A stretch of DNA of 58,167 nt from Candidatus Enterousia sp. Its GTDB lineage: Bacteria; Pseudomonadota; Alphaproteobacteria; Rs-D84. Positions 8,409-23,826 of this stretch are shown here, one piece after another. The notes beneath the pieces were generated by a model. The model did no database searches, had not been told where the DNA came from, and worked only from the letters and a program-made list of their open reading frames with translations. Position 1 is the first letter of the stretch, and each line of letters starts with the position of its first letter. Location: assembly GCA_045645725.1 (NCBI GenBank), contig JAZRJG010000022.1:1-58167 (forward strand). The letters are read 5' to 3'. The position numbers and the translations under genes are program-made.

Positions 8409-8553
8409 AGCGTTCGTATTATAAAAAATGAGTTTCGGTATGTCTAGTGTAAAAGAATATGAAAGAAAATTATATTTTTTTAATTTTTACGTTGACATTT
8501 ATAATTAAAATGTATAAAATACGTTCGCTTTCATGATGAAAGTGCAAAGTTTT

Positions 8554-8629
8554 GGGGTTGTAGCTCAGTTGGTAGAGCACCTGCTTTGCAAGCAGGGGGT
8601 CGTCAGTTCGAGCCTGATCAGCTCCACCA
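8554..8629 (+). tRNA. tRNA-Ala(TGC)
   Basis: Cloverleaf, anticodon arm CCTGC-TTTGCAA-GCAGG, TTCGA T-loop, CCA end. Confidence 0.97.
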
Positions 8630-8708
8630 AAACAAACGAAAGGGGGATTCAAAAAATCCCCTTTTTATAAACAATAAATACAAATTGCGTTAAAGGGGGT
8701 GAATACAT

Positions 8709-8915
8709 ATGGTTAAAGTTCTGGTTCGTGACAACAACGTCGAACAGGCACTGCGCGTCGCAAAACGTAAATCGCAGAAAGAAGGTCTGTACCGCGAAAT
8801 GAAAGAACGTCAGCGTTATGAAAAACCAACAACCAAACGCAAACGTTTGAAAGAAGAAGCCGTACGTAACGAAAAAAAACGTCAATCAAAACAACGTATG
8901 GTTTTCGGATTCTAA
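8709..8915 (+). CDS. rpsU: 30S ribosomal protein S21
   Basis: [18 protein letters not shown]...REMK...YEKP. Confidence 0.95.
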
Positions 8916-8947
8916 TCCAAAATTCAATCCCCCGTTTTGGGGGATTT

Positions 8948-9208
8948 TTATTTTATTACCGCACCTTTTATTATGGTTAAATCTTCTTTGATGTCGTCTA
9001 TCTTTATCTGAATCTGACCAATACCGGTTTCCAATAAGGTCGTGCGATTTTCCAATGATGTTATGCGCGTATCTACGCGTTCCAATTCAATAACAGACAT
9101 ATCTTGGCGCGCAACCCAATATATCAAACCGCCAATAAAAACAATCAAAAACCAATTTTCACGCAGAATTTCAAACATTCCACGCCCCATTGAGATGTTG
9201 CCCGTCAT
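8948..9208 (-). CDS. Small TM + coiled-coil protein at the end of the phage-like operon (XhlA/holin-like)
   Basis: WFLIVFIGGLIYW followed by heptad repeats; ATGA overlap with the upstream gene. Confidence 0.6.
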   Translation of the reverse strand: MTGNISMGRGMFEILRENWFLIVFIGGLIYWVARQDMSVIELERVDTRITSLENRTTLLETGIGQIQIKIDDIKEDLTIIKGAVIK

Positions 9209-9408
9209 TTTTTATCCCCCCGACCGTGTGATATCATGGATTCTATTTGCCGGACCAATGCGCATTGGGCTGCAACCCAGCGCAACCGATTGTCAGATAC
9301 ATCAGGTGACATTACACGATTTATTGTTATATCACGCAAATGCGCCAATACGGCCGCACCAGATGGCGATGAAAAACAGCGCGCATATTGTTGTTCTGTA
9401 TCTGTCAT
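9205..9408 (-). CDS. Bbp19-like phage protein (portal-adjacent)
   Basis: YARCFSSPSGAAVLAHLR...LRWVAAQCALVRQI pattern; ATGA-coupled to the portal gene. Confidence 0.75.
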   Translation of the reverse strand: MTDTEQQYARCFSSPSGAAVLAHLRDITINRVMSPDVSDNRLRWVAAQCALVRQIESMISHGRGDKK

Positions 9409-10640
9409 AATGTTCCCCCCGATACTGTTTCCATTGCGGTCATTTGGGCAATTGGTGCAATGTATTTTAATTCTGCATCACTGTTTAATTTAATACGCGG
9501 TATCAGACCACGACGCGCCAATATCTGTAACCCACGGTCGCACAGCGGACGGATGAATTCATGCAACAATCGTCCATAGGTCGCGCCCAATATACGCATC
9601 ATATCCGCATTACGTGCCATAATTTCCGTGGCAGTCATTTCTTTTTCACTTAACAATCCCAACCTGTCTGCCAATAACGTATGACGAATCCTGTCGCGTA
9701 AATCGGTTAAAATTATTTGCGACACATCAAAATTCGCCCCCGACGCCAATGGTGTTAAGCCCGACGATCCGATGGCTTTTGGTATAATTGCCCCAGGGGT
9801 CAGATTAATATTATTCAAATTTATAACCCCGTCATCGTCGGCTTGCCATATTCCGGAAACAGCAATCGTTGCGTTTTTTAATACCAATTCCACAACTTTG
9901 TTTGCCGTTTTAATATCCGGTAACGCACGCATAACCGGACCACGACCGTATAATTCACCGCTGATTACAGACCAACGAAAGATTATGTATGGATTTGTTT
10001 CAAATGTGCCGGTTGAAACAATGTTGTTTTCCAGTTCACCATCCGTATCAATCCAAGCAGTAAAATCTGTACCAACCAAACTTTGAACCAATGTTAATGG
10101 TGTTTCGGGGTCGCGATGAATCACATCGCGCAATGAAGTCGGCGGCGTCCACGTCGGATAACGTGACATAACTTCGCGCGCCGGCATCGATGTGGTATGA
10201 AATACTGCATTTGGTAATATGGCAATATCTGACATTGGGATTGCCGTAAAATTAAATGCGGACGACGATCCAATTGGAGTTTCAGACATAAATAAACACG
10301 CCGTTCCCAATACCACCAAGTCCATGTAACACTGATGTATCGTGGTGTAAAAATTAGAATCATTCAAGTGCGAACGCAATATATGTGTCGCCATATCAGA
10401 GTCAGGTGATGACACACTTTCGGGAATCAGCGTTAACCACAAAGATTCAGGTGGCGTCATCAATGTGTAAATAGATGCCGCCAGATTATCTGCAGCATCC
10501 GATGCCGTCGCGTCATACAATGTCGCAATGTCATCGTCCGCCGTCGGCATAGCATACCGACGCGCCGATTCCCAACGCGAAAGCCACGGCGCGCGCATAT
10601 CCAACGCACGTTTGTATAATGTTTTTAAATTATTTTGCAT
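9405..10640 (-). CDS. Podovirus head-tail connector (portal), T7 gp8/Bbp21-like, 411 aa
   Basis: YDATASDAADNLAAS, DLVVLGTACL, PYIIFRWSVISGELYGRGPVMRALPDIK, MTATEI motifs. Confidence 0.9.
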   Translation of the reverse strand: MQNNLKTLYKRALDMRAPWLSRWESARRYAMPTADDDIATLYDATASDAADNLAASIYTLMTPPESLWLTLIPESVSSPDSDMATHILRSHLNDSNFYTTIHQCYMDLVVLGTACLFMSETPIGSSSAFNFTAIPMSDIAILPNAVFHTTSMPAREVMSRYPTWTPPTSLRDVIHRDPETPLTLVQSLVGTDFTAWIDTDGELENNIVSTGTFETNPYIIFRWSVISGELYGRGPVMRALPDIKTANKVVELVLKNATIAVSGIWQADDDGVINLNNINLTPGAIIPKAIGSSGLTPLASGANFDVSQIILTDLRDRIRHTLLADRLGLLSEKEMTATEIMARNADMMRILGATYGRLLHEFIRPLCDRGLQILARRGLIPRIKLNSDAELKYIAPIAQMTAMETVSGGTL

Positions 10641-10681
10641 TTTGTTTCCTTTTGTTAAAAACAGGTTATAGGTATAGTTTT

Positions 10682-11521
10682 CTAAACCGAAAAATTTGTG
10701 TTGGCGCAAAAGCGTTGAGGCAAACGGTTGGACGGATATACCGGTACGGGTATTTGCGCAATTGCACCCGCCACCGCATCCAATCCATCATCATGCCCCA
10801 CCCCACCAATCGGTGACCAACCCAACATTTCCGACATCAATGGTGTTTGTTGGGTACGCATATGGGCATACAAACGCCCCGTCGATAATAATGGTTCGAT
10901 GGCATTTAATATGCGATCGGACTTTGATGCATTGTTTGTCACCCTGTGCACATATATGTTCATGGCGCGGCGGTTTGCACAATCACGCATAATTTCCGGC
11001 AGACCACCACCAATACCATTTGTTTCAATTGTTATGCGACGCAGGTTTCGCACATGCATAAAATCCAATATTTGTTCACATTGATTGGATAAAGGATACG
11101 CTTCGTTATCCGACACGGTCAGATATAATATATCGTGGATAAAGACACTATGATTCTTATCATCACGATACAGCAAGACGCAGGCGCTGCCGTCACGATT
11201 ACGACGACCGGTGGACGGATCCCAATACAAAACAGAACCTGTTATAATCGCGTCACCCAATCGGGCGTTACGCACATTAAATTCGTCTGAATAAAAATGC
11301 AGTGCACCGGGGTCCAACCTTATGCGTTCGGGCGAAACAAAATCCAACATCATCTGGGCGGAAAAAGCACGCAGCCCCACCGTTTGACGCATATGTTCAA
11401 TACGTTCAGGCGGAAATAATTCCGGCCACGCAGATTGACCATCCGTATTAACCAACGGAATTTTCAGGGTTTTATACCCAGACAAAAAAGGCGTTGAAAA
11501 TGGATTTTTTTTATATACCAT
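10682..11521 (-). CDS. Terminase large subunit, C-terminal RNase H-fold nuclease half
   Basis: SAWPELFP...FSAQMML, YWDPS, IETNG, HDDGLDAVAGA; start taken at ATG 11521 (alternative 11545). Confidence 0.85.
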   Translation of the reverse strand: MVYKKNPFSTPFLSGYKTLKIPLVNTDGQSAWPELFPPERIEHMRQTVGLRAFSAQMMLDFVSPERIRLDPGALHFYSDEFNVRNARLGDAIITGSVLYWDPSTGRRNRDGSACVLLYRDDKNHSVFIHDILYLTVSDNEAYPLSNQCEQILDFMHVRNLRRITIETNGIGGGLPEIMRDCANRRAMNIYVHRVTNNASKSDRILNAIEPLLSTGRLYAHMRTQQTPLMSEMLGWSPIGGVGHDDGLDAVAGAIAQIPVPVYPSNRLPQRFCANTNFSV

Positions 11522-11543
11522 TGAACCAAAGAAGGATTGTGAC

Positions 11544-13109
11544 ATGGATTTTACCCCTAAAACTTTACCGACCAATTTAGAAGCCGAACAGGCCGTATTA
11601 GCCGCTGTGTTAATGAATAACCGTGCGCTGGAACGTGTGGCGGAATTTTTGCGGTCGGAACATTTTTCACATCCTGCACACCAAGAAATGTTTAAGTTAG
11701 CCGAACGTCAATTTGCCGCCGGCATACCATTTGATATTATTACGGCAAAAAACTATTTAGACCAACAAGGCGTGTTGGAATCGGTCGGTGGTGTTGAATA
11801 TTTAACCAAGTTATCCGGCGCAGGCGCAACCGTCGTTAACGTCGAACAATATGGACGTATCGTTTATGAAAACGCATTGCGTCGCGACTTGATTGCATTG
11901 GGCCAAGACATTATGGACAAGGCCTTTGTCGAAGATTTGGATTCGCCCGTCACACGCCAAATTGAAATCGCCGAACAAAAACTGTTCGATATGGCAACAA
12001 CTGGTTCGTCCGAACGTGAAGTAACATCTATTTCAACCGCGTTACAGACCGCATTGGCCGAAGCAGAAATCGCATACAAAGCCGATGGACAATTATCGGG
12101 TTTAACCACCGGATTGGACGCATTGGATAAATCTATCAGTGGTTTACACCATTCGGACTTAATCATCATTGCAGGTCGTCCGGCGATGGGTAAAACAACG
12201 TTGGCAATGAATATCGCTTTTAATGCGGCAAATGCAATTGCGTACGGTCGCGCAAATCAAAACTATAAAGGCGCAGTGGTGTTTTTCAGTTTGGAAATGT
12301 CTGCGTCCCAATTGGCGGCGCGTGTTCTGTCATCGCAATCAAAAGTACCGGCGTGGGCAATGCGTGAAGGAAATTTGACAGACGAGGACTTTTTGAAAAT
12401 GAGCCAATATTCCGCCGCAATTGGCAAAGTTCCGTTGTTCATTGATGACACGCCGGGGATGTCCGTTCCAATGATGCGCACACGTGCACGCAGATTGGCG
12501 CGCAAACACGGTGGCATCGCGTTAATCGTCGTGGACTATTTACAGTTGATGACATCGCCGGGGGGCAAACACAGCGACAACCGCGTACAAGAAATTTCCG
12601 AAATTACACGTGGTTTGAAAATGTTGGCCAAAGAATTAGATGTGCCGGTGATTTCCCTGTCCCAGTTATCACGTAGCGTTGAATCACGTGATGATAAACG
12701 ACCAATGTTGTCGGACTTGCGTGAATCTGGATCTATTGAACAGGACGCCGACATTGTTATGTTCACGTATCGTGAAGAGTATTATCTGCAAAATCGCGAT
12801 CCGTCGGAAAGATTGTCAAACACCACCAACAATAATATGGTCGAATCATGGCAAAAACGTTTGGAACGCGCACGTGGCAAAGCAGATATCATCATTGGCA
12901 AAAACCGTCACGGCCGCCCAGAAACCGTACGAACCGCGTTCTTTGGCGATTACAGTTTGTTCGATAATTTGGATGAAATGGAGGCGCGCGGCGAAAGCGA
13001 ATACGCACAGCCCGCACCAACAATCACCGCAGCATCATTGGGGCCAGATCCCGAATTTGAACCAACGGCCATTGACCCAGATGCAATCCCAGATGATTTG
13101 CCATTGTAA
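11544..13109 (+). CDS. dnaB: Replicative DNA helicase (host type)
   Basis: P-N-EAEQAVL N-terminus, AGRPAMGKT, FFSLEMS, VVDYLQL, SQLSR, SDLRESGSIEQDAD, YREEYYL, KNRHG. Confidence 0.97.
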   Translation: MDFTPKTLPTNLEAEQAVLAAVLMNNRALERVAEFLRSEHFSHPAHQEMFKLAERQFAAGIPFDIITAKNYLDQQGVLESVGGVEYLTKLSGAGATVVNVEQYGRIVYENALRRDLIALGQDIMDKAFVEDLDSPVTRQIEIAEQKLFDMATTGSSEREVTSISTALQTALAEAEIAYKADGQLSGLTTGLDALDKSISGLHHSDLIIIAGRPAMGKTTLAMNIAFNAANAIAYGRANQNYKGAVVFFSLEMSASQLAARVLSSQSKVPAWAMREGNLTDEDFLKMSQYSAAIGKVPLFIDDTPGMSVPMMRTRARRLARKHGGIALIVVDYLQLMTSPGGKHSDNRVQEISEITRGLKMLAKELDVPVISLSQLSRSVESRDDKRPMLSDLRESGSIEQDADIVMFTYREEYYLQNRDPSERLSNTTNNNMVESWQKRLERARGKADIIIGKNRHGRPETVRTAFFGDYSLFDNLDEMEARGESEYAQPAPTITAASLGPDPEFEPTAIDPDAIPDDLPL

Positions 13110-13202
13110 TCAACGTTGATTTTTGTGTAATAATTTACTTGCGCTGACAACTAAAATTGACTATCATTTTGTCAAGTAATATTCATTTTTAGGAGTTTAC
13201 AA

Positions 13203-14210
13203 ATGGCCCAAGAAGAAATTATCTTTCCAAATAATATTCGTAACATTCGTTTGGCAGCCGGTATGAAAATGACCGAATTGGCGCGTCGTGCAGGTTTGTC
13301 TTTGTCCGCCGTGTCAAAAATAGAGAAAGGCGTTCGCAGATTAAACCAAAAACAGCTGTTGAACATCTGTAACATCTTGGGTTGTAAATTGTCCGATATC
13401 TTTATCAAAGAATCCGACGATGTCGCAAATCAATGGCAATCGGAAATCAAACGCCGTATGAACGACAATGAAGACAGCGGATTAAAAATCTTTGGCAGCG
13501 GATTGCGCAAAATCCGCCAACAATCCGGCAAAACCATTGCCCAGGCCGCAAAACAAGCCGGTATGACATTGTCCGTATATCATAAAATCGAAGTTGGCCA
13601 ACGCGAAATCTATAAAAATGAAATCGAACCTTTGGCGGAATCATTTGCAATGAAGGCCGAAGATTTATTCGCAAAAATTGCAAACCTGTATAAGTCAGGT
13701 GAATTAAACAAACAAATCAACAAGGTAAAAGAACGCGTTAAATCCGTTCTGGAACCCGGGAACCCACTGTCCGGAATCGACGTCAATGGCAGTTTGTATG
13801 GCGCAAAATTATATGACAGCGCACGTAAAAAATTAATCCCTGTGTTCGGTACACCAAATGGCAAAGCAATCGCTTTGAAAAAATCCGATAAAAATATGAT
13901 TGTTGCACCCATCGCATTAGAAGGCAAAAATGGAATCTATGCCGTTATGCCAAACGTCAAAAGATTGGGTGGTATGTTACCGGAAAAATCATATATATTG
14001 GCCGACGCTTTGACACCGGCATCCGTGGGCGATATGGCCGTTTGCATGGACGTGGACTTTGATGCCGTCGACACAGAAGAATCTGTTACCGCACAGGTCG
14101 CCATGATTAAACAAGACGCCAAAGGCAAAGTTTATGCGCAAATATCGGGACCAGATGAAAAAATTACTCCGGTTACCGCACACAAAGTTATCATGATCGT
14201 TATGGAATAA
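13203..14210 (+). CDS. XRE-family regulator with two HTH domains and a C-terminal domain
   Basis: IRNIRLAAGMKMTELARRAGLSLSAVSKIEKG and LRKIRQQSGKTIAQAAKQAGMTLSVYHKIEVGQR. Confidence 0.85.
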   Translation: MAQEEIIFPNNIRNIRLAAGMKMTELARRAGLSLSAVSKIEKGVRRLNQKQLLNICNILGCKLSDIFIKESDDVANQWQSEIKRRMNDNEDSGLKIFGSGLRKIRQQSGKTIAQAAKQAGMTLSVYHKIEVGQREIYKNEIEPLAESFAMKAEDLFAKIANLYKSGELNKQINKVKERVKSVLEPGNPLSGIDVNGSLYGAKLYDSARKKLIPVFGTPNGKAIALKKSDKNMIVAPIALEGKNGIYAVMPNVKRLGGMLPEKSYILADALTPASVGDMAVCMDVDFDAVDTEESVTAQVAMIKQDAKGKVYAQISGPDEKITPVTAHKVIMIVME

Positions 14211-14238
14211 CATAACCGCCCAGCAGGAGAGAGAAAAC

Positions 14239-14877
14239 ATGAAAGCAAAAGCCAGCGCAACCGCATTAAAGTTGATAAACCTGTACCGCCAAGAACACGT
14301 TATCGTTGGCGGTTGGGCGGCATTAAACCCCATTTTCTTGCACGAAGCAACAAATGATGTGTTGGCCGAGATGTCAAACTTGCCCAATGGTCGAAAATTG
14401 GCCCAACATATTCAAAACCTGCGCAGTGGTGTTACAAAAATGGATTCTGTTGAACGCGAATTGTTGCCATATGGTGGCGCAATGGCCGATACGATTACAT
14501 CCGTTAAGCTGACCAATGAACAATGGCACGAATTGGCAAATGGAATCGCCAAATTTACCCCAGACCAACAAGGTTTGGACATGATTCAATCTTTGAACGT
14601 GGTAAAAATGCATGGTGCAGAATGGCCAATCGCAATTAAAAACGCATTGACCACCAGACCAGATTTGCAAAACAAATGGAATGCCGTCATACAAACATAT
14701 AACGCGTACAGAATATGGGACAGCGCAAATGAAATTGTGTCCAACCCTTTGACCGAACGTATATGCGCCCAAGTTCAAGCAGACATACCAGAATATGAAA
14801 CATATTTGCCTATGTTTGGCGATACAGGCGAAGAGTTATTAAAACGTTTAAGAACCTGTATCAGCACAGCAGAATGA
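14239..14877 (+). CDS. Hypothetical protein (212 aa)
   Basis: AGGAG SD, host-like codon use; 3' end overlaps the terminase ATPase gene by 30 nt. Confidence 0.75.
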   Translation: MKAKASATALKLINLYRQEHVIVGGWAALNPIFLHEATNDVLAEMSNLPNGRKLAQHIQNLRSGVTKMDSVERELLPYGGAMADTITSVKLTNEQWHELANGIAKFTPDQQGLDMIQSLNVVKMHGAEWPIAIKNALTTRPDLQNKWNAVIQTYNAYRIWDSANEIVSNPLTERICAQVQADIPEYETYLPMFGDTGEELLKRLRTCISTAE

Positions 14878-15492
14878 ATCTGCGGTTGTGTCATCCGACG
14901 TACGATATATGGTATCCACAGTATGGGGCGTGCCAATATAAATCATACAGCCCGTTGGCGATAAAATAAAATCCAATTCCCGTAATCGTTCACGTAAATC
15001 TGTGCGTTTGCGCAATGTGTTTGATGTGTTTGGGACTTCTATGTCGTCACATATAATTAAATCGGCGCGCATACCGGTTATGTTTCCATGTACGCCTTGG
15101 CATATAACCGACGGTTCGCGAATGCCAATCGGTCGATTTATAGTGATACGGTTTGATGCCCACTGTTTACGATTTTTGGGAATCAAATCTGTGCACCATG
15201 GATGATTTTCCAATATATGACGAATATGTTCAACCATACGCGACGCCAAAGTAGTTTCAGCAGACAAAATTAAAATCCGCGTCGTTGGATATAAATACAA
15301 TATACACGCCGCAAATATTCCGACAACTGTCGATTTGCCCGAATGACGAAATGCCATTAATAAACCACGGTGTGGGGATTCGTTCCATATGCCTACTAAA
15401 AATTCCATAATTCGTCGGTGATGTGCGGGCGTTTTATAACCCAAAACACGATTCCATTCGTCCAAAAAACTATAAAATTCCATAGTCATCAC
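14848..15492 (-). CDS. Terminase large subunit, N-terminal ATPase half
   Basis: Walker A AFRHSGKST, GNITGMRADLIICDDIE (Walker B), coupling motif IYIGTPH, then a stop; start approximate (15492 or 15486). Confidence 0.88.
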   Translation of the reverse strand: MMTMEFYSFLDEWNRVLGYKTPAHHRRIMEFLVGIWNESPHRGLLMAFRHSGKSTVVGIFAACILYLYPTTRILILSAETTLASRMVEHIRHILENHPWCTDLIPKNRKQWASNRITINRPIGIREPSVICQGVHGNITGMRADLIICDDIEVPNTSNTLRKRTDLRERLRELDFILSPTGCMIYIGTPHTVDTIYRTSDDTTADSFCCADTGS

Positions 15493-16021
15493 GATTCTGG
15501 GCGGGCGGCATATCCGATATATAACCATAGTCATTTATCAAAGTGGGTAAAGCAGCATCCAACACCATCAACAAATTACGATACAACCCCAAAACACCAC
15601 CGCCCGACATTTTGTCTGAAATCAAATTTAATGTATAATCTATTAACGATTTAATTTCATCGTGTCGGTTCGACCATTCGGCCGTATCCAATTCAACAGA
15701 ACGCAAATCTTGGAACGCAGCCAATAAAAAATTAAAGTCCGAATTCAAATGTTCTATATCCAGCGGTTGGGTGGGTTGATAATCAATTACACGCGACAAA
15801 GATATTTGCCGAAAAATGTCCATTTCAACCCCCAATCGTGGAGGCGTGTCAAACACAACCATCCCGCCTGAAAAATCGTCGTTTGGCACAATTGAAAAAT
15901 TATATTCCGCATCATCTATAACGCCATCAATGGACACACGTACATCCAATGGTTGAAAAAACGGAAAGGCAAACGGAAACTCGGTCGTTGTGCCATCTGT
16001 GACATATGATATTTTATACAT
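15470..16021 (-). CDS. T7 gp17-like tail-fibre N-terminal adaptor protein (short, 183 aa)
   Basis: YVTDGTTTEFPFAFPFFQPLDVRV...LNSDFN pattern; C-terminal DYG repeats. Confidence 0.7.
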   Translation of the reverse strand: MYKISYVTDGTTTEFPFAFPFFQPLDVRVSIDGVIDDAEYNFSIVPNDDFSGGMVVFDTPPRLGVEMDIFRQISLSRVIDYQPTQPLDIEHLNSDFNFLLAAFQDLRSVELDTAEWSNRHDEIKSLIDYTLNLISDKMSGGGVLGLYRNLLMVLDAALPTLINDYGYISDMPPAQNRDDYGIL

Positions 16022-16036
16022 AGTTGTCCCCACAGT

Positions 16037-16384
16037 TTATATATTTAATTCATCCAATCTGTCCAACCATTTCTTTAAGATATTAGGTTTAGACACTTTG
16101 ATTTCTTTTAATTTTCTGGTATTTGATTTGCGTTTTTCGTCATATGGCGCAACCGTTTCGGCCCGTAACCGACGCAATACCGCACCGGCGGTTACACCGT
16201 CGTTTGAAACCCCAGACGCACCGTATTTCGCACGTTGTGTTGCCAAGACCTTTTGCAGCAGGTTTGTTTTTTCTGCTTCATCCGCAGCCATTTGTGCCAA
16301 GATTTCTTGGCGTTGGTTTTTGGCCACCTTTTTGTCTTGCCTGTAATTCAAAACGTCTGTGACGTCTGATACTAATTGTCCCAT
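16037..16384 (-). CDS. Small internal-virion-like protein
   Basis: LATQRAKYGASGV motif and position after tail tubular B. Confidence 0.55.
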   Translation of the reverse strand: MGQLVSDVTDVLNYRQDKKVAKNQRQEILAQMAADEAEKTNLLQKVLATQRAKYGASGVSNDGVTAGAVLRRLRAETVAPYDEKRKSNTRKLKEIKVSKPNILKKWLDRLDELNI

Positions 16385-16423
16385 GATATATCCTTTCTGT
16401 TGATAAATTGTGATTATTAATAT

Positions 16424-18139
16424 TTATGCGTCATATGAACCATACGTGGTGACCGATAATATTGTTACAGGTTTGGAATCGGTACCATGCAATGTCCACA
16501 AAGGCACAATCGAATCTGTCGTGGTCCCCAGCAAACCAACCGACACATCGCCAGAGTAGCCCGCACTGTCATTTGATTGAACCGAATTTGGCAAAACAAT
16601 ACGATGATTGTTAATTGATAATGACTTTGTGTTTGATATTCGCGCGGTTACTTTGCGGATACGTTGTCTGCGTGCATTATGATGCCCAATGCGCAATGGC
16701 AATCCCGATGCCACAAATGAAAATGGATACCCCGCCCCGTCGCACAGTGTGTCATAATCAAAACATTCTAAAAATACTTGGTTATGCCGGCGAACCAATA
16801 CATAGGTTTTGCCACCACACACACCAACAGATAAAAATTCACCGGCGGTCGTATATTGGCCCCATGCCGATATGCCCAAAGACGAATTGTAATTTAATAC
16901 CGCCATTGCACCATCTGAACGCACAACAAATAATTGACGCACTGTGTCGTTATACGCAATATCCACCGGTGAAAACAACAAATGCTTGGACATTGGACAC
17001 AGGTCTGTGGCGTTATAGCGTTCGCCAAAATCATCCAAAGCCAATTCACGAATATCAGAACCTGTGCGTGATATAAATACAGTAGAACCCTCTATGCATT
17101 GGGGTGGCAAATGTCGTGACGCAAACGATCCAACCGATGTATGTTGACGTATATCGATTGAAGATGGGGTTAACGGAACAGTTGATATAGCCCATTCCCC
17201 AACATTGGTTAATATTTGCAGACCATCACTGCTGACCACGGTACAGATATGTTGGCGAACCTGTGACTGTAACGAAACAAATATTGCTTCATCATCCAAA
17301 CCGGTACCCGATGAAAAATCTGAGTGACGTCCAACATGCGACATCCATATGCCACATGGCCAGCCACGCGAACCACCAAACACCAATCTGTCTTGATGAA
17401 ATGTAATACTGTATGGCCAACCACGGCGTTTACCAAATGCACACTCGGTCCAATCGGCCACGGATTCAGACGGCAATGAATACGTACCATTGGTGTTGGC
17501 AACGATTTGGGTTGGACTGATGTATTCAACAATGACCCATTGACGCCCCAACAACTGTAAATAGTCGTCAACGCAATCGGGCGTCCAAAAATCTTGGTTG
17601 GTGGTAAATGTCGCAAAGTTATTACCCGTAGAATTTGCCGAAACAGATATTGTGATATTCGCAGAATCATCAAAGCGAACAAATGGCATATTCAAACTGA
17701 AATCCGTCGGATTGCGCGCAAAACCAAACGATTCTAAATAAAACAATCCGTTTTTATAACGTAAAATTTGTGGTCTGAAATCGGGATGCACAAATATAAT
17801 CGTATCAAAACGTTGGGCATATTGCATACACTGTATTTCATCCAACGTCCACGACGACAATACAGATTGATATCGCGTTCCATCACGATATATGTATATA
17901 TATCCGGCCTGTAACACAATCAGATATTCATGATTGTCCGATGTTGTAAATGGTATTAAACGTCCCGCACCACGTAATGTGTCAACCGTGCGCAACCCCG
18001 CCCTGCGTGTCAAACCACCGCCAGATAACACGTCCATATTTTCCAAGCGCGATAATCCATGTATATTATCCGATGAATAAAATTCGGGCGACACCGCGCC
18101 ATGCGCAAATGAATTTTGTGTCTTGATAAAATCTGTCAT
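16424..18139 (-). CDS. Tail tubular protein B / nozzle (T7 gp12, P22 gp10-like)
   Basis: QNSFAHGAVSP...LENMDVLSGGGLTRRAG, RGWPYSITFHQDRLVFGG, AW near the C-terminal beta region. Confidence 0.85.
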   Translation of the reverse strand: MTDFIKTQNSFAHGAVSPEFYSSDNIHGLSRLENMDVLSGGGLTRRAGLRTVDTLRGAGRLIPFTTSDNHEYLIVLQAGYIYIYRDGTRYQSVLSSWTLDEIQCMQYAQRFDTIIFVHPDFRPQILRYKNGLFYLESFGFARNPTDFSLNMPFVRFDDSANITISVSANSTGNNFATFTTNQDFWTPDCVDDYLQLLGRQWVIVEYISPTQIVANTNGTYSLPSESVADWTECAFGKRRGWPYSITFHQDRLVFGGSRGWPCGIWMSHVGRHSDFSSGTGLDDEAIFVSLQSQVRQHICTVVSSDGLQILTNVGEWAISTVPLTPSSIDIRQHTSVGSFASRHLPPQCIEGSTVFISRTGSDIRELALDDFGERYNATDLCPMSKHLLFSPVDIAYNDTVRQLFVVRSDGAMAVLNYNSSLGISAWGQYTTAGEFLSVGVCGGKTYVLVRRHNQVFLECFDYDTLCDGAGYPFSFVASGLPLRIGHHNARRQRIRKVTARISNTKSLSINNHRIVLPNSVQSNDSAGYSGDVSVGLLGTTTDSIVPLWTLHGTDSKPVTILSVTTYGSYDA

Positions 18140-18159
18140 TATATACCCCCAACAAAATT

Positions 18160-18678
18160 TTAATGACGAACATCGATTAAAGAAAATGACGCTATGCCAT
18201 TGTTCGGTGTGGTTGTGCTATCTATGAATTTAGATGTTTGTAATTCAGATTCATATAACGCAACCAATGTACGAAATACAGATTGATCGCCCAATAAAGG
18301 TACACAAAACTCCATCGCCAATCGCGTTGCGGCCAATGAAACAAAATAACTGGGGAACATTTCGGGACCAACACGCACGACCGCCAACACATCTGTGTGT
18401 TCTGTGTCAGATAAAACTTTATCACCCAATATATGGCCATCGGTTTTTATAATACGCAATACATTTGATGGAATTAAAAATTCACCATCGGCATTACGTG
18501 TCAAAGAAATCTGACGGGTTGCAAATCGCCACGGATGAACAGACAGCAAAGTATCCATCACAGAATCAAATAATACGCGCGATAACTTGGCCGCCGCTGT
18601 ATCATCAACCAACGATTGTATTGGTTGTTCACCCAACTTTAACAATGCCATAGAGCATAAATCTATTTTGGTAAGCAT
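18160..18678 (-). CDS. Tail tubular protein A / adaptor (T7 gp11-like)
   Basis: IDLCSMALLKLGEQPIQSL...HPWRFA...LATRLA-type pattern. Confidence 0.85.
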   Translation of the reverse strand: MLTKIDLCSMALLKLGEQPIQSLVDDTAAAKLSRVLFDSVMDTLLSVHPWRFATRQISLTRNADGEFLIPSNVLRIIKTDGHILGDKVLSDTEHTDVLAVVRVGPEMFPSYFVSLAATRLAMEFCVPLLGDQSVFRTLVALYESELQTSKFIDSTTTPNNGIASFSLIDVRH

Positions 18679-18749
18679 ATCCCCCCCATAAAAATTTAGT
18701 TAAATAAAAAACCGACAGCCAATCGGATGCCGGTTTTGTAATTTATATA

Positions 18750-18980
18750 TTAAGCCAATGATGCCGTCGTAACATTTAATTCGGTAATATTAATCTTTTT
18801 AATCGCCGTATTATCAGACGCATTAATCATCACAATATCACCAATATTCATCAATGTTTTTACATCGTTAAAATATCCGGTCGCAGTAATGGTTGCCAAT
18901 GTTTCCGATGCACTGTAATGCCATAAAGTAAATCCGTTTGCATATGCAATCACAGACAAATTTTTATTTTGAAATGCCAT
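18750..18980 (-). CDS. Small capsid-adjacent protein (possible decoration/cement protein)
   Basis: MAFQNKNLSVIAYANGFTLWHY...GYFN...GD pattern; directly downstream of the capsid gene; function inferred. Confidence 0.65.
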   Translation of the reverse strand: MAFQNKNLSVIAYANGFTLWHYSASETLATITATGYFNDVKTLMNIGDIVMINASDNTAIKKINITELNVTTASLA

Positions 18981-19002
18981 GTATATTACCCCTTTGGTTT
19001 AA

Positions 19003-19830
19003 TTAAGCAGATACAGAATCCGAACATTTAATGCGAACGATTCCGTTATTATCAATCAAGACCGCGCCTTGGGACATACTGTTGCTGATAAAGTGCGCGG
19101 CACGTTCGCCATGCCATGAAATATCTGTTTTAACATCTTGGCCACACGCATGACCAACGGCGGACGAATGATAAATAAAGCAATCACGATTATCATCGGT
19201 CACAGGCAAACCGTTATACAAAACCCACGTGATACCCAACCATTTGCGCGATTCAAAACCATTTAACATTGGACCATTGTCGCCAACAAAGTCAGCAGAT
19301 GTAAATTCTGCCATTGACAATAATGCGTTCCATTGATTTACACCAACAACCGCAAAACGACGACCATCATCGGGGACATCGTTTGTATTCAAAACCGCAA
19401 CAGCCGATAAAATCAAATCTTTGGTTAATGGCGCAGCATAATCACCAACCGCGGTGGTTGCAGTATCCATTGCATTAACAATTAATTCATCTGTTTTGCG
19501 ACCCAACGCATATGCCCCTGCAGACGCAACGACACGACGTTCATCAATATTTGTTTTTAATTCATCCAATGCGTCAACCCAATCACCGGCATAATAATCC
19601 GACAACGCACATTCAACAGGTTCATGATTCAAATTCATAACCGGCACAATACCATGACGTGATTTAGTACTGGCGATACCACGACCAACTTTTTGAAACG
19701 TGGTGGACGCACCAATAACACCCGATTTACTGCGAACAGTGGAACGTAATTTCGTCCCCATTTGCTGATATGCCAAATGCACATCGGCTTCGAATTGTTT
19801 CACGAAGACATTATCTATGGAAACAGACAT
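19003..19830 (-). CDS. Major capsid protein (podovirus HK97-fold type), 275 aa
   Basis: FVKQFEADVHLAYQQMGTKLR, DELK, AYALGRKTDELI, FTSADFV, WLGITW, MSQGAVLID. Confidence 0.88.
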   Translation of the reverse strand: MSVSIDNVFVKQFEADVHLAYQQMGTKLRSTVRSKSGVIGASTTFQKVGRGIASTKSRHGIVPVMNLNHEPVECALSDYYAGDWVDALDELKTNIDERRVVASAGAYALGRKTDELIVNAMDTATTAVGDYAAPLTKDLILSAVAVLNTNDVPDDGRRFAVVGVNQWNALLSMAEFTSADFVGDNGPMLNGFESRKWLGITWVLYNGLPVTDDNRDCFIYHSSAVGHACGQDVKTDISWHGERAAHFISNSMSQGAVLIDNNGIVRIKCSDSVSA

Positions 19831-19861
19831 ATAAAAATCCTTTGGTTAAAAAATGAAAAAA

Positions 19862-20002
19862 GATGTCGTACGACATCCGTTAAATATTTTTTATTTTTCG
19901 GTTATGCAAAAATGCGCCGACAAACAAAAAGTATTCAGGTCCAATTTTTATGGATTGTCTGATAAAAAAATCAGTTGGACTGTGCACGATTATCCAACTG
20001 AT
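19862..20002 (-). promoter_or_regulatory. Structured 5' leader of the capsid gene (three bulged hairpins plus a 16-bp palindrome)
   Basis: Hairpins at 19970-20002, 19935-19962 and 19898-19920; palindrome GATGTCGTACGACATC 19862-19877. Confidence 0.55.
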
Positions 20003-20061
20003 AATTTTATTAAACAAAAGCCCCCAAAGACGGGGGCCAAATCATAATAAATTAATAATGA

Positions 20062-20547
20062 TTATTTTTTCTTTGCGCATGCTTTTTTTGCACATGGCTT
20101 TTTTGCACATGGTTTTGCAGCAACTTTTTTCGCACATGCTTTTTTTGCAACTGGTTTCGCAGCAACTTTTTTAACCGCTGCTTTTTTTGCAACTGGTTTT
20201 GCAGCAACTTTTTTTGCAGCCGGTTTCGCAGCTGGTTTTTTAACCACTACTTTTTTCGCGGCTGGTTTTGCAGCAACTTTTTTCGCAGCAGGTTTCGCAG
20301 CAGGTTTTTTAACCACTACTTTTTTTGCAGCTGGTTTTGCAGCAACTTTTTTTGCAGCCGGTTTTGCAGCAACTTTTTTCGCAACCGGTTTTGCAGCAGG
20401 TTTTTTAACCGCTACTTTTTTTGCTGCTGGTTTTTCTGCTGCTTTTTTTGCAACAGGTTTTTTAACCGCTGCTTTTTTTGCAACTGGTTTTTCTGCTGCT
20501 TTTTTTGCAGCAACTTTTTTAGATGGTCTTAAAAATGAAAATGCCAT
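20062..20547 (-). CDS. Histone H1-like Lys/Ala/Pro-rich DNA-binding protein
   Basis: Tandem KKVAAKPAA-type repeats over ~150 aa; AAGGAG SD; hairpin after the stop. Confidence 0.85.
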   Translation of the reverse strand: MAFSFLRPSKKVAAKKAAEKPVAKKAAVKKPVAKKAAEKPAAKKVAVKKPAAKPVAKKVAAKPAAKKVAAKPAAKKVVVKKPAAKPAAKKVAAKPAAKKVVVKKPAAKPAAKKVAAKPVAKKAAVKKVAAKPVAKKACAKKVAAKPCAKKPCAKKACAKKK

Positions 20548-20652
20548 TATTCTCTCCTTTAATAGTTTGGATAGAACAAATCCGTTTTGTTCTTACTGTG
20601 CATTTTATCGAAAATGCGAAACATAGTAAAGAAGAAAGTGTGTTTTTTTTCA

Positions 20653-21309
20653 TTATGAATATAATTTTTTAAAACCATTTTCTATTTTTCTGATGTATTC
20701 AATATCATTATCACGCCAATATTTTGGATCGCGCATCATTGAACGTAAATCTGCATCTGTTAAATTTTGTATTGAATTTTTTTCGGTGTGAACATTTGGT
20801 TCCATTGTTTGCATCATCTTGTACACGCTTTGAATTCCGCGGGGTGTGGCACACAATGAATCAAATGCATCACGTGGTAAAAATCGTTCACCAAATGTTT
20901 GTATTGCATGTAATGCATCATTCATTTTTTCTTCGCCACCAAAATAATTTCTTAATTCATTAATCGAATTTGTTTGCGAATTAACAGAAAATATTTCACA
21001 CAATATTGGTGATAAAAATTCGTTTGCAATATCATAAATTTTTTCAACCTGACCACAGGTTAAACCAATATCTAAAAATTTTTCACGCAATTTTTCATCA
21101 TCATATATTTCATGCGTCGGGTATTCTGATGCAGTTTCCGGAACACCAATCGCACGATTAAATTTTTGTCGCACATCGGTGTCACTGTCATCCGTTGGTA
21201 TTGATACCATTGTGCCAATCTTTTTTTCTAATTCTTTGTACGATTTCATTAAAGCATCGGAATTTAATGTGCCATCTGGGTTCAAAAATTTTTCAGGGAT
21301 GTTATCCAT
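20653..21309 (-). CDS. Capsid assembly (scaffold) protein, T7 gp9-like
   Basis: IPEKF...LMKSYKELEKK N-terminus, MRDPKYW...F..LY C-terminus. Confidence 0.8.
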   Translation of the reverse strand: MDNIPEKFLNPDGTLNSDALMKSYKELEKKIGTMVSIPTDDSDTDVRQKFNRAIGVPETASEYPTHEIYDDEKLREKFLDIGLTCGQVEKIYDIANEFLSPILCEIFSVNSQTNSINELRNYFGGEEKMNDALHAIQTFGERFLPRDAFDSLCATPRGIQSVYKMMQTMEPNVHTEKNSIQNLTDADLRSMMRDPKYWRDNDIEYIRKIENGFKKLYS

Positions 21310-21499
21310 TTCTTTTCCTTTTGTTTTCATTGGAACGACGTAAAAAATATATGCCACCAAATGCAAATATCGATTGCAGTGTGGTAAACAAATCTGAATC
21401 ACCAACCAAATATGCACCCACCGCCGTCAATATGCCGGTCGCAGATAAAATATATGTGCGATAGCCACAAAGATGACCACCACGAATTATCTTGTTCAT
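21302..21499 (-). CDS. Putative holin (two TM helices, basic tail)
   Basis: GYRTYI...GAYLVGD...GIYFLRR + KRKR; next to a cell-wall hydrolase; overlaps the scaffold start. Confidence 0.65.
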   Translation of the reverse strand: MNKIIRGGHLCGYRTYILSATGILTAVGAYLVGDSDLFTTLQSIFAFGGIYFLRRSNENKRKRNG

Positions 21500-21511
21500 G
21501 TTAATTGCCCA

Positions 21512-21898
21512 CTATAAATAAAACAGCATTCCATCAATATCTGCAATATAACCACGCGATGTGGCCCAATCAGGTATGACATCACCATGGTGAAACATCG
21601 TTGCGCCACAGCACATATCCGGCAGCACACCGGTTAACATACGACGCGCAACACGAACGCACATATCAAAGCGATGCGCAACCATATCCCCAGACGCATA
21701 TTTACGCGAAAAGATATCTGATTTATCTGTCACCTGTTCAATAGTCATACCCGATTTATCCGATAAATTTTTTATCATTGATGTTAATGCTTCGACCACA
21801 GGTAATGTTTTGCCGCCCGTTTCATAATAGACCGTACGCGCAACTTTATATGCCAAACATTCGGACGTATCCGTTTGTGGAATTAATGCCATAATCAT
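21512..21898 (-). CDS. SleB/Hydrolase_2-like cell-wall hydrolase (putative endolysin)
   Basis: ARTVYYE catalytic-Glu motif; GATMFHH..V.PDWA...IDGMLFY. Confidence 0.7.
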   Translation of the reverse strand: MIMALIPQTDTSECLAYKVARTVYYETGGKTLPVVEALTSMIKNLSDKSGMTIEQVTDKSDIFSRKYASGDMVAHRFDMCVRVARRMLTGVLPDMCCGATMFHHGDVIPDWATSRGYIADIDGMLFYL

Positions 21899-22041
21899 TT
21901 TAATTTTGCCTTGGGTTATAAAAAAAATCACGCCAAGGCGTGATTAAATTAAAAAAACCACAACGATGTTGTGGATACTATTTGTGCTGTTTATGGTCAT
22001 AATATTAACATAATTTTGACAAAAAGTCAAGTGTTTTATTT

Positions 22042-23450: not shown

Positions 23451-23635
23451 TTTTTATCTCCATTGTTTTAGATACTGGGGCATTAATTTGTCGCACAGTT
23501 TACATTGATTTTACGCAATACTTTTAGCACAAACAATAAGTACCATTTCCTAGTTTATGGGACAAAAAAATTATACTAAAAAAAATTTTGACAAAACACT
23601 TGACGAATCGATTTTTGTATACTATATTCTTAATT

Positions 23636-23826
23636 GTCAAAGGGACAAAGCCCGATGACCAGATGCGAAAGCACCTGTGGGGACCAGAGGTTCAGACTCC
23701 CTCCTACATTCTCTCTCCTCTGGACTCTGGGCCCCAACACATTAGTTTAGAGTGTCCAATTTCTTTTTCTCCTTTCCTTCCTTTCGGGACACTCGGAAAT
23801 ACCGCCGGCGACGGCGGTATTTTTTT
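23636..23826 (+). ncRNA. Candidate sRNA with CU-rich (anti-SD-like) loops
   Basis: Promoter TTGACG-17-TATATT (23600-23628); hairpins with loops CTCCCTCCTACATTCTCTCTCC and TTCTCCTTTCCTTCC; terminator AAATACCGCCG/CGGCGGTATTT. Confidence 0.6.

What the first reader, a model, noticed from the sequence alone, without database searches (positions are those of the whole stretch)
10682..15492. Large terminase split into ATPase and nuclease genes by a 3.3-kb antisense dnaB-XRE-hypothetical block
Seen: the ATPase half (14848-15492; Walker A, Walker B, IYIGTPH) stops about 20 codons after the coupling motif. The nuclease half (10682-11521) begins with PFLSGYKTLKIPL...SAWPELFP. Both are same-strand, in the correct order, and total ~493 aa. 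From recalled family pattern, YIGTPH..IY is normally followed after a short linker by PFL.G...L.IP, so the break appears to fall in a linker with little lost. Inference: either a two-subunit terminase with separately controlled cutting and pumping (which could favour non-specific host DNA packaging), or, more speculatively, a gene rejoined by DNA rearrangement.
Basis: partly seen in the sequence, partly recalled or inferred. Interest (0 to 1): 0.85.

Follow-up and report, generated by a model that had tools for sequence, protein, structure and literature searches.

The report
Two-gene terminase in domesticated phage cluster
A gut bacterium with a tiny genome keeps a phage-derived particle gene set whose DNA-packaging enzyme has been encoded as two separate genes since the origin of its whole order, and host genes such as dnaB were later dropped between them.

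Summary
TerL-N (14848-15534, -) and TerL-C (10682-11575, -) match complementary parts of one T7-type large-terminase profile (phrog_38 positions 272-459 and 468-707). They flank antisense dnaB, a two-HTH XRE gene and an unknown 212-aa gene.

The block did not cause the split. In other families of the same order (Rs-D84; the window is Candidatus Enterousia), TerL-N stops 2-6 residues after the GTPHxxxIY motif. TerL-C is then a separate ORF 168-516 bp downstream, with no dnaB block. Outside the order the same TerL is one 399-937-aa frame in 55 of 56 genomes.

Both halves keep invariant catalytic motifs and are open in all 81 (N) and 69 (C) genus loci that could be scored. dN/dS is about 0.11 and 0.18.

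A co-fold places a TerL-C strand beside the strand that precedes Walker A in TerL-N (ipSAE 0.72, best control 0.00). This suggests fragment complementation rather than independent pump and cutter.

The setting is a compact T7-like head-tail cluster without an integrase, probably GTA-like. A closed long-read genome and independent contigs exclude misassembly. No intron, repeats or joined form were seen.

The parts
14848..15534 (-). TerL-N: N-terminal piece of a T7-type large terminase, with Walker A (FRHSGKS), Walker B (ADLIICDDIE) and the coupling motif (GTPH). The start is uncertain (ATG 15534, or GTG 15492 / ATG 15489). It overlaps the fibre gene at its 5' end and the 212-aa gene at its 3' end.
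   Evidence: aligns to residues 32-211 of solved T7-like TerL 8dgc_E, E 3.9e-35
10682..11575 (-). TerL-C: the rest of the terminase. It begins with PFLSGYKTLKIPL (predicted last strand of the ATPase core), followed by a lid-like segment, the RNase H-like nuclease (invariant WDP, ETNG, DDGLD) and a conserved C-terminal ..ANTNF(K/S)(I/V) tail. Candidate starts are TTG 11575, ATG 11545 and ATG 11521. The ATG at 11545 overlaps the dnaB ATG (11544) on the other strand.
11544..13109 (+). dnaB replicative helicase. It is the only DnaB_C match in the genome, so it is a host gene and not a phage gene.
13203..14210 (+). XRE-type regulator with two HTH domains. The XRE + 212-aa gene pair is conserved elsewhere in the chromosome in other families of the order.
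14239..14877 (+). 212-aa protein of no known family, partner of the XRE gene. Its 3' end overlaps TerL-N by 30 bp in a convergent arrangement.
9405..10709 (-). portal (T7-type head-to-tail connector)
   Evidence: PF12236, E 4.8e-83
9205..9408 (-). Bbp19-like small phage protein
8948..9208 (-). 86-aa protein conserved with the cluster across the genus, function unknown. A hydrophobic stretch in the translation suggests a membrane segment; this is read from the sequence, and no topology tool was run.
15470..16033 (-). stub of a T7-type tail fibre (N-terminal, tail-binding domain only). It was not detected in 24 of the 80 related loci.
16037..16384 (-). 115-aa protein. It is weakly similar to a T7 gp14-like internal virion protein of a relative's cluster.
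16424..18139 (-). tail tubular protein B
   Evidence: phrog_376, E 1.4e-74
18160..18678 (-). tail tubular protein A
19003..19830 (-). major capsid protein (Phage_capsid_2), 51-66% identical to those of other alphaproteobacterial orders
20062..20547 (-). 161-aa protein with a histone-H1/HC2-like match, lying between the scaffold and capsid genes
20653..21417 (-). T7-type scaffold (capsid assembly) protein
21512..21931 (-). small cell-wall hydrolase, which marks the upstream end of the cluster. lipB and priA follow it.

Best explanation
The large terminase of a chromosomally fixed, T7-like head-tail gene cluster underwent gene fission in or before the ancestor of the sampled families of the order Rs-D84. 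The cut lies in a variable loop just after the coupling motif. TerL-N carries the strands with Walker A, Walker B and GTPH. TerL-C carries what the co-fold predicts to be the last core strand and lid of the ATPase, plus the whole nuclease and a conserved C-terminal tail whose role in portal docking I only infer. The two polypeptides most likely reassemble non-covalently by fragment complementation into a normal TerL protomer, which packages and cuts DNA for phage-like particles. The cluster has capsid, scaffold, portal, tail tube A/B, a gp14-like protein, a fibre stub and a hydrolase. No integrase or phage replication gene was found in it. That layout is the one expected of a gene-transfer-agent-like domesticated element. 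Once the halves were separate genes, the spacer between them became ordinary intergenic DNA. In the lineage leading to Enterousia, the host genes dnaB and the XRE + 212-aa pair were moved into it. Shown here: the split position, its age, selection, intactness, the secondary nature of the block and the reality of the assembly. Inferred: physical reassembly (model only), particle production and DNA transfer.
For: Complementary profile hits and alignment to intact relatives define the cut.

Age of the split. TerL-N was found in 38 of 41 genomes of the order (24 of 24 relatives in the genus), with open frames of about 185-240 aa. TerL-C was found in 137 of 151 genomes. In all five other-family loci examined (L021-L025), N stops 2-6 residues after GTPHxxxIY and C is a separate ORF. 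A class-wide profile search found intact frames of 399 aa or more in 55 of 56 genomes outside the order and 202-228-aa frames in 4 of 4 inside it. In a TerL tree, the 10 intact sequences sit on one side of a branch with 98% SH-aLRT support, so one fission event suffices.

Function retained. Walker A, Walker B and GTPH are invariant in 28 of 28 sequences. WDP, ETNG and DDGLD are invariant in 26 of 26. No stop falls in the core of TerL-N in 81 of 81 loci or of TerL-C in 69 of 69. dN/dS is 0.11 (N) and 0.18 (C), against 0.06 for dnaB and 0.07 for portal.

Co-fold. ipSAE is 0.72 with a best control of 0.00, at least 72% of contacts agree between runs, and partner pLDDT is at least 75. That mark was reached by 58 of 80 solved complexes and 2 of 110 mismatched pairs.

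Block is secondary. In family f1, genus g17 has no block, g15 has only dnaB on the TerL strand, g14 has dnaB inverted and g11 has a 9-kb block. The XRE + 212-aa pair lies elsewhere in 3 of 5 other-family genomes checked, and dnaB is not next to it or to TerL in any of the 5.

Assembly is real. All 80 related loci are compatible with the layout, including a closed 958,618-bp long-read chromosome. Contigs from three studies bridge the junctions.

Domesticated setting. No integrase match lies on the window's contig C22 and no HK97-type capsid was found in the genome. Host genes flank the cluster. ftsZ and an amidase lie inside the cluster in another family.
Against: No protein, particle or reliable RNA evidence exists. 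The only RNA-library signal is three short contigs (dnaB, XRE, TerL-N), which may be DNA carry-over.

The co-fold pass may come from memory, because single-chain TerL structures are solved, and my own alignments were used.

dS is near saturation (about 1.3), so the dN/dS values are rough.

One 99%-complete genome of family f6 (G029) has TerL-N but no TerL-C was found with this query. This fits decay in that lineage, or an N half that can act alone.

No small terminase was recognised, the fibre is a stub and no gp15/gp16-like ejection proteins were seen, so particles may not deliver DNA.

TerL-C has no obvious promoter of its own. Promoter-like hits were no more frequent than in shuffles (15 found, 15.3 expected).
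Confidence: 0.7

Rival explanations
1. The two pieces are rejoined before translation. The route would be RNA splicing (a group I/II intron, as in jumbo gut phages), trans-splicing, or programmed excision of the intervening DNA in particle-producing cells.
For: terL genes split by group I introns and restored by splicing are documented in Jug phages (PMC12880540, passages read). Herpesvirus UL15 is two exons around antisense genes (PMC3079670, passages read). The break loses no residues.
Against: No intron or ribozyme family was found at E <= 1 in the window 8000-22000 or in four other-family loci. The spacer content differs between lineages: an sRNA-like gene with its own terminator, dnaB in either orientation, or 9 kb of genes. 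There are no flanking direct repeats and no integrase match on the window's contig C22. Excision would delete the only dnaB. No contig joins ~14880 to ~11520 in three DNA runs. Neither half shows an intein (Hint) domain in Pfam. TerL-N ends in stop codons at slightly different places, with unconserved tails.
Confidence: 0.07
2. The cluster is a decaying prophage remnant, and the two ORFs are pseudogene fragments with no current function.
For: The genome is highly reduced. The fibre is truncated and not detected in 24 of 80 loci. Ejection proteins and TerS are not recognisable. The gene order is rearranged relative to other Alphaproteobacteria. Family f6 has lost TerL-C or both halves.
Against: Both halves are open in every genus locus scored (81 of 81 and 69 of 69). 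Catalytic residues are invariant across families. dN/dS is 0.11-0.18, within the range of the cluster's structural genes (0.07-0.25), against 0.06 for dnaB. The cluster is retained in over 90% of good-quality genomes of an order that has shed most biosynthesis (PMC12306168, passages read).
Confidence: 0.08
3. The halves have become functionally independent. TerL-N would be a stand-alone packaging ATPase and TerL-C a separately regulated nuclease, so that cutting is uncoupled from pumping.
For: They are separate genes. The ancestral spacer holds an sRNA-like element that ends in a terminator-like hairpin. In Enterousia the halves are 3.3 kb apart with opposing genes between them. G029 keeps N without a detectable C. 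From recall, phi29-type motors work with an ATPase that lacks a nuclease.
Against: The co-fold puts TerL-C residues 11-23, 31-35 and 55-61 against TerL-N residues 17-48 and 162-192. The C strand YKTLKIPL pairs with the strand before the P-loop. TerL-N alone would therefore lack an edge strand and lid, as I read it from the recalled ASCE strand order 5-1-4-3-2. The two genes co-occur in nearly all genomes.
Confidence: 0.12
4. The arrangement is an assembly or binning artefact.
For: The window comes from a 43-contig metagenome-assembled genome.
Against: The same layout is seen in all 80 related loci from many assemblies, none contradicting it. One is a closed circular 958,618-bp long-read chromosome. 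Independent contigs bridge the left junction (X1 10683-11640, X4 11152-12212) and the right junction (X1 13208-16400, X3 14007-16400, X4 13964-15285).
Confidence: 0.01

Closest known systems
T7-type large terminase (gp19 / 'DNA maturase B'; solved chains 4bij_A, 8dgc_E)
   Same: TerL-N aligns to residues 32-211 of 8dgc_E (E 3.9e-35) and 23-210 of 4bij_A. It has the same Walker A/B and coupling motifs and the same T7-type RNase H-like nuclease family. The neighbours are T7-type portal, scaffold and tail tube A/B.
   Different: It is encoded as two genes, each with its own stop and start, in every genome of the order that was inspected. It is chromosomal and not in a phage genome. No small terminase was recognised next to it.
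Intact TerL of the same compact cluster in other Alphaproteobacteria (e.g. proteins that sources name from Caenispirillum, Roseospira and Roseospirillum; P0022, P0062, P0064)
   Same: About 50% identity to TerL-N and 28-38% to TerL-C. The neighbours are the same (portal-scaffold-capsid-tubeA-tubeB-...-TerL-hydrolase), and capsids are 51-66% identical.
   Different: There it is one 470-515-aa frame. The portal lies at the other end of the cluster, and no host genes were seen inside the stretches examined.
RcGTA-like gene transfer agent clusters retained in reduced alphaproteobacterial endosymbionts (George et al. 2022, PMC9254644; passages read)
   Same: A phage-derived head-tail cluster kept under purifying selection in very small alphaproteobacterial genomes. 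In some of those, the terminase is detached from the main cluster.
   Different: Those are HK97-capsid, siphovirus-type clusters. This one is T7/podovirus-type. No HK97-type capsid was found in this genome. No split terminase is mentioned in that paper (0 occurrences of 'split').
terL genes split by group I introns in Jug jumbo phages (PMC12880540) and the two-CDS TerL of phage phiPDS1 (PMC10773633)
   Same: Large terminase found as two or three ORFs. For phiPDS1 the two CDS are said to correspond to the two domains (passages read).
   Different: Jug pieces are rejoined by RNA splicing, whereas no intron was detectable here. The phiPDS1 authors suspected a codon-table or assembly problem. Here the split is conserved across an order and assembly is excluded.
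Herpesvirus terminase UL15 (two exons around antisense UL16/UL17; PMC3079670)
   Same: The map looks alike: terminase ATPase-subunit coding sequence in two same-strand pieces separated by about 3.5 kb that holds opposite-strand genes (passages read).
   Different: UL15 is rejoined by eukaryotic nuclear splicing. By my recall (not checked), its exon junction falls between Walker A and Walker B and not after the coupling motif. There is no evidence of any splicing here.

Membership tests
T7-type large terminase (Terminase_6N + Terminase-T7_RNaseH-like; phrog_38) | ASCE ATPase with Walker A, Walker B plus catalytic Glu, and a coupling motif | tested here: met
   FRxSGKS, ADxIICDDxE and GTPH are invariant in 28 of 28 aligned TerL-N sequences. 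Pfam PF03237 gives 25 bits against a 22-bit cut-off. phrog_38 E 8.8e-40. The motif names are from my knowledge of the family.
T7-type large terminase (Terminase_6N + Terminase-T7_RNaseH-like; phrog_38) | RNase H-like nuclease with conserved acidic catalytic residues | tested here: met
   WDP, ETNG and DDGLD are invariant in 26 of 26 TerL-C sequences. phrog_38 positions 468-707, E 1.4e-35. Pfam PF22530 gives 25.6 bits, just under its 27-bit cut-off. Assigning these residues as catalytic is by analogy and recalled.
T7-type large terminase (Terminase_6N + Terminase-T7_RNaseH-like; phrog_38) | Both domains on one polypeptide | tested here: not met
   Separate ORFs in the window and in all 80 genus loci. 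Also separate in the five other-family loci L021-L025 and in the other f1 genera inspected. The relative in other orders is a single frame.
Gene transfer agent / viriform | Chromosomal head-tail-packaging cluster of phage origin without replication, integration or lysogeny modules | tested here: met
   The cluster spans 8948-21931 and holds only structural, packaging and lysis-type genes plus the host block. No tyrosine integrase match lies on the window's contig. Serine recombinases and transposases were not searched.
Gene transfer agent / viriform | Inherited with the host lineage and kept by purifying selection | tested here: met
   TerL-N in 38 of 41 and TerL-C in 137 of 151 genomes of the order. 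lipB lies next to the cluster in f1 and f2 loci. The TerL tree follows genus and family labels. dN/dS is 0.07-0.25 for all cluster genes. No formal tree reconciliation was done.
Gene transfer agent / viriform | Particles are made and carry random host DNA in pieces too small to hold the cluster | not testable with these tools
   No particle, virome or proteome data were examined.
Gene transfer agent / viriform | Delivery of the DNA to recipient cells | not testable with these tools
   Only permissive evidence: comEC and dprA homologues are present in the genome, as they are in most control genomes.
Intron-split or intein-split terminase gene | A self-splicing intron RNA or intein (Hint) domain at the break | tested here: not met
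   No intron family at E <= 1. No Hint/intein Pfam hit on either half. The N tail after the motif is 2-24 residues long, too short for a split intein by my recall of their sizes.

The most novel reading that the evidence does not exclude
Rs-D84 bacteria carry a previously undescribed podovirus-type (T7-like) gene transfer agent. By extension, so may roughly one in seven sampled Alphaproteobacteria that hold the same compact portal-scaffold-capsid-tube-TerL-hydrolase cluster far from any integrase. In Rs-D84 its packaging motor works as a natural two-chain terminase assembled by strand complementation. Essential host genes (dnaB here, ftsZ in another family) have become interleaved with the particle genes, so that in Enterousia any read-through of the particle operon would run antisense through the only dnaB. 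This would offer a built-in link between particle production and arrest of replication.
Probability: 0.3. Interest if true: 0.85.

Novelty: new variant of a known kind. Interest (0 to 1): 0.72.

Why it matters
Large terminases are the textbook single-chain 'pump plus cutter' of tailed phages and herpesviruses, and how the ATPase and nuclease communicate is still debated. This is a natural version cut after the coupling motif that has been kept by selection across a whole bacterial order. It offers a ready-made system for testing which contacts are needed for ATPase activity, DNA gripping and cutting, and whether the pieces can be titrated separately.

Members of this order are reported to lack most biosynthetic pathways (PMC12306168). 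Retaining about 13 kb of T7-like particle genes in 0.7-1.1-Mb genomes therefore points to a useful function, most plausibly DNA exchange. It also points to a second, podovirus-type lineage of domesticated particles in Alphaproteobacteria besides the RcGTA type.

There is a practical lesson for annotation. Half-size terminase ORFs separated by host genes need not be pseudogenes or misassemblies.

Tried and rejected
Leads that went nowhere or were rejected:
- Direct or inverted repeats flanking the block: nothing beyond short chance matches.
- Rfam introns or ribozymes in the window 8000-22000 and in the spacers of L021, L022, L023 and L025: none.
- Promoter and terminator consensus scan of 10600-16500: counts equal to shuffles, so uninformative.
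- Laying contigs of X1, X3, X4 and X20: no contig joins across the block. Three short RNA-library contigs cover parts of dnaB, XRE and TerL-N. Uncovered parts and the lack of joints in contigs are not evidence of absence.
- ESM Atlas for the 212-aa protein: no usable hit. Pfam and PHROGs also gave nothing.
- A possible small terminase: the 115-aa gene upstream has no similarity to the ORF just before TerL in a relative, but matches that relative's gp14-like ORF (E 1e-5). So it is not TerS, and none was found.
- The apparent sixth 'split' outside the order (G346, 230-aa frame): rejected. The locus has a run of masked bases (X in the translation) exactly at the motif, so the frame cannot be read.
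- The idea that the C/U-rich sRNA-like loop specifically targets the 212-aa gene's ribosome-binding site: dropped. GGAGAGAG-type sites precede that gene in only 41 of 76 genus loci and look like ordinary Shine-Dalgarno sequences. Three other-family upstream regions lack the long match.

Literature. Searches for 'Enterousia' (16 papers; one read by passages), for split-terminase phrases (6 papers), for GTA + tail tubular protein + Alphaproteobacteria (1 paper) and for GTA + reduced genome + terminase + symbiont (3 papers) found no description of this cluster or split. The 2023 paper on Candidatus Enterousia cited in PMC12306168 is not in the library and was not seen.

Full report
**What is in the window.** On the minus strand, from high to low coordinates, lie:
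- a small cell-wall hydrolase (21512-21931);
- a T7-type scaffold (20653-21417);
- a 161-aa protein with a histone-H1/HC2-like match (20062-20547);
- a major capsid protein (19003-19830);
- tail tubular proteins A and B (18160-18678, 16424-18139);
- a 115-aa gp14-like protein (16037-16384);
- a 187-aa stub of a T7 tail fibre (15470-16033);
- TerL-N (14848-15534);
- after 3.3 kb of plus-strand genes, TerL-C (10682-11575);
- the portal (9405-10709);
- a Bbp19-like protein and an 86-aa protein.

The plus-strand block is dnaB (11544-13109), a two-HTH XRE regulator (13203-14210) and a 212-aa protein of no family (14239-14877). Host genes flank the cluster: lipB and priA on one side, and tRNA-Ala, rpsU and an ABC exporter on the other. 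rpsU is read from the translation only.

TerL-N and TerL-C hit the same terminase profile, phrog_38, at positions 272-459 and 468-707, with E 8.8e-40 and 1.4e-35. Intact relatives of 470-515 aa, about 50% identical to the N half, were found among 205 longer homologues. Aligned to seven of them, N ends and C begins in one short loop of variable length, between ...GTPHTVDTIY RTSDD and PFLSGYKTLKIP. No conserved residues are missing. The genome has no other copy of either half. This dnaB is its only DnaB_C match, so it is the host's replicative helicase.

**Whose genome.** Record titles of the 80 best related loci name Candidatus Enterousia and uncultured gut Alphaproteobacteria. A 2025 paper describes Enterousia and its order Rs-D84 as animal-gut bacteria with genomes under about 1 Mb that lack most biosynthesis. 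It mentions neither phage nor terminase (passages read).

**The arrangement is real and old.** All 80 loci show TerL-N | hyp212-XRE-dnaB (antisense) | TerL-C | portal, or a truncation of that order at a contig end. None contradicts it. One is a closed circular 958,618-bp long-read chromosome. Contigs from three independent runs bridge both junctions, and no contig skips the block.

**The block did not split the gene.** Across the order, TerL-N was found in 38 of 41 genomes and TerL-C in 137 of 151.
- In all five loci from other families (L021-L025), TerL-N stops 2-6 residues after GTPHxxxIY. TerL-C starts as its own ORF 168-337 bp downstream, with no dnaB nearby.
- Three other loci from other families are rearranged further. 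In L019 the portal lies between the halves. L020 and L026 show TerL-N without TerL-C in range.
- Within the window's family, genus g17 has only a 516-bp spacer. Genus g15 has dnaB alone on the TerL strand. Genus g14 has dnaB on the TerL strand plus XRE/hyp212 opposite. Genus g11 has a 9-kb block, and g13 matches the window.
- In other families the XRE + 212-aa pair sits elsewhere, adjacent in 3 of 5 genomes checked, and dnaB lies elsewhere again.
- Outside the order, a profile of TerL-N found the gene in 56 of 397 alphaproteobacterial genomes. The frame is 399-937 aa in 55 of them. The one short frame (G346) coincides with masked bases and cannot be read.
- A maximum-likelihood tree of 30 concatenated TerL sequences places the 10 intact ones on one side of a branch with 98% SH-aLRT support. 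A single fission is therefore enough, although the tree is unrooted.

**Both halves are maintained.**
- Walker A, Walker B and the coupling motif are invariant in 28 of 28 TerL-N sequences spanning six families.
- The three acidic nuclease motifs are invariant in 26 of 26 TerL-C sequences.
- No stop interrupts the TerL-N core in 81 of 81 loci, TerL-C in 69 of 69 or the portal core in 66 of 66.
- Pairwise Nei-Gojobori dN/dS, for pairs with dS between 0.1 and 1.5, has medians of 0.11 (TerL-N), 0.18 (TerL-C), 0.07 (portal), 0.17-0.18 (tube B, tube A) and 0.06 (dnaB). dS is near saturation, so these values are approximate.

**How the halves probably work.** A co-fold of the two alignments gave ipSAE 0.72 in three runs against 0.00 in three controls. 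At least 72% of contacts agreed between runs and partner pLDDT was at least 75. That mark was reached by 58 of 80 solved complexes and 2 of 110 mismatched pairs. The most confident contacts pair TerL-C residues 16-23 (YKTLKIPL) with TerL-N residues 37-44 (RGLLMAFR), the strand just before the P-loop. In the recalled ASCE strand order 5-1-4-3-2, this makes the C strand the fifth core strand. The C gene would then also carry the lid-like segment that follows. Because single-chain TerL structures are solved, this pass may reflect memory of intrachain contacts. It shows that the pieces fit like an intact TerL, not that they bind in a cell. My reading is fragment complementation, not an independent pump and cutter.

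**Rejoining is unlikely.** No intron or ribozyme family was detected in the window or in four spacers. No intein domain was found. There are no flanking repeats and no integrase match on the window's contig. The material between the halves differs from lineage to lineage.

**The setting looks domesticated.**
- The cluster lacks recognisable replication, integration or lysogeny genes.
- It is single-copy, and no HK97-type (RcGTA-like) capsid was found in the genome.
- It is kept in over 90% of good genomes of the order.
- It lies next to lipB in two families.
- In family f5 it even has ftsZ, an amidase and a tRNA between TerL-C and the portal.
- In other orders the intact version has the order portal-scaffold-capsid-tubeA-tubeB-...-TerL-hydrolase.
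- In 4 of 5 closed or nearly closed genomes the nearest tyrosine integrase is 95 kb or more away, and in the fifth it is 22 kb away.
- In one 1.1-Mb genome, host transporter genes follow the cluster directly.

A GTA-like role is the best inference, but no particle or transfer evidence was available. comEC and dprA are present, which is only permissive.

**Comparison with print.** terL split by group I introns and restored by splicing is described for Jug phages. A two-CDS TerL in phage phiPDS1 was left unexplained. Herpesvirus UL15 has two exons around antisense genes. RcGTA-type clusters persist in reduced endosymbionts. None of my searches found a conserved, unspliced two-gene terminase or a T7-type cluster in Rs-D84.

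**Verdict.** This is an ancient two-gene terminase inside a probably GTA-like cluster, with host genes inserted later into the gap.

Noticed in passing
window 23590-23826 (+); also the spacers L021:7794-8032, L022:8664-9000, L023:7874-8090, L024:7942-8109, L025:8657-8972 and L124:7632-8147: An sRNA-like gene. It has a promoter-like TTGAC..TATA pair, two hairpins with 22- and 29-nt C/U-rich (anti-Shine-Dalgarno-like) loops, and a terminator. Folding energy z = -4.84, with 0 of 200 shuffles as stable. Hairpin stems differ between loci while staying complementary. In six other loci of the order (five from other families, plus genus g17 of family f1), C/U-rich hairpin sequence of this kind fills the gap between TerL-N and TerL-C on the TerL strand. 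In the window the full element lies outside the cluster, between a 139-aa ORF and priA. There is no Rfam match. It resembles the 'cuckoo'/CcsR sRNAs of Alphaproteobacteria, by recall only.
   Followed up: partly
L021:2680-6870: In another family of the order, ftsZ, an AmiC-type amidase and a tRNA lie between TerL-C and the portal, so essential host genes sit inside the particle cluster there too.
   Followed up: partly
L022:10409-10876; also the ORFs just after TerL-C in L021 and L025: Type IV pilin-like ORFs, with an N-terminal methylation motif, directly follow TerL-C in other families. A possible link to DNA uptake or adhesion was not examined.
   Followed up: no
window 20062-20547 (-): A 161-aa protein with a histone-H1/HC2-like Pfam match (E 1.8e-11) sits between the scaffold and capsid genes. 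It could be a DNA-condensing or internal head protein.
   Followed up: no
window 15470-16033 (-): The tail-fibre gene keeps only the tail-binding N-terminal domain (187 aa). It was not detected in 24 of the 80 genus loci, where TerL-N directly follows the 115-aa gene.
   Followed up: partly
G029 (locus L026): A 99%-complete genome of family f6 has TerL-N (211-aa frame) followed directly by the portal. No TerL-C was found anywhere in it with this query. The two other f6 genomes searched had neither half.
   Followed up: partly
window 10642-10683: In run X1 a contig replaces 40 bases at the TerL-C/portal boundary with 581 other letters. This is a strain variant with an insertion there, like the ~700-bp gap seen in L018.
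   Followed up: no
G026, G031 and G049 (genus g3), TerL-C matches: In these genomes the TerL-C match lies in open frames of 798-812 aa, with one stop near its start. This suggests fusion with a neighbouring gene in that genus. It was not inspected.
   Followed up: no
window 11543-11546: The dnaB start codon (11544, +) and a candidate TerL-C start codon (11545, -) overlap within one CATG. Each gene's upstream signals would therefore lie inside the other's coding sequence.
   Followed up: partly
L110-L119 (other alphaproteobacterial orders): The same compact T7-like cluster, with an intact TerL, occurs once per genome in 56 of 397 sampled genomes of the class outside Rs-D84. Capsids are 51-66% identical to the window's, and the cluster mostly lies far from any tyrosine integrase. 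It may be an unrecognised domesticated element class-wide.
   Followed up: partly
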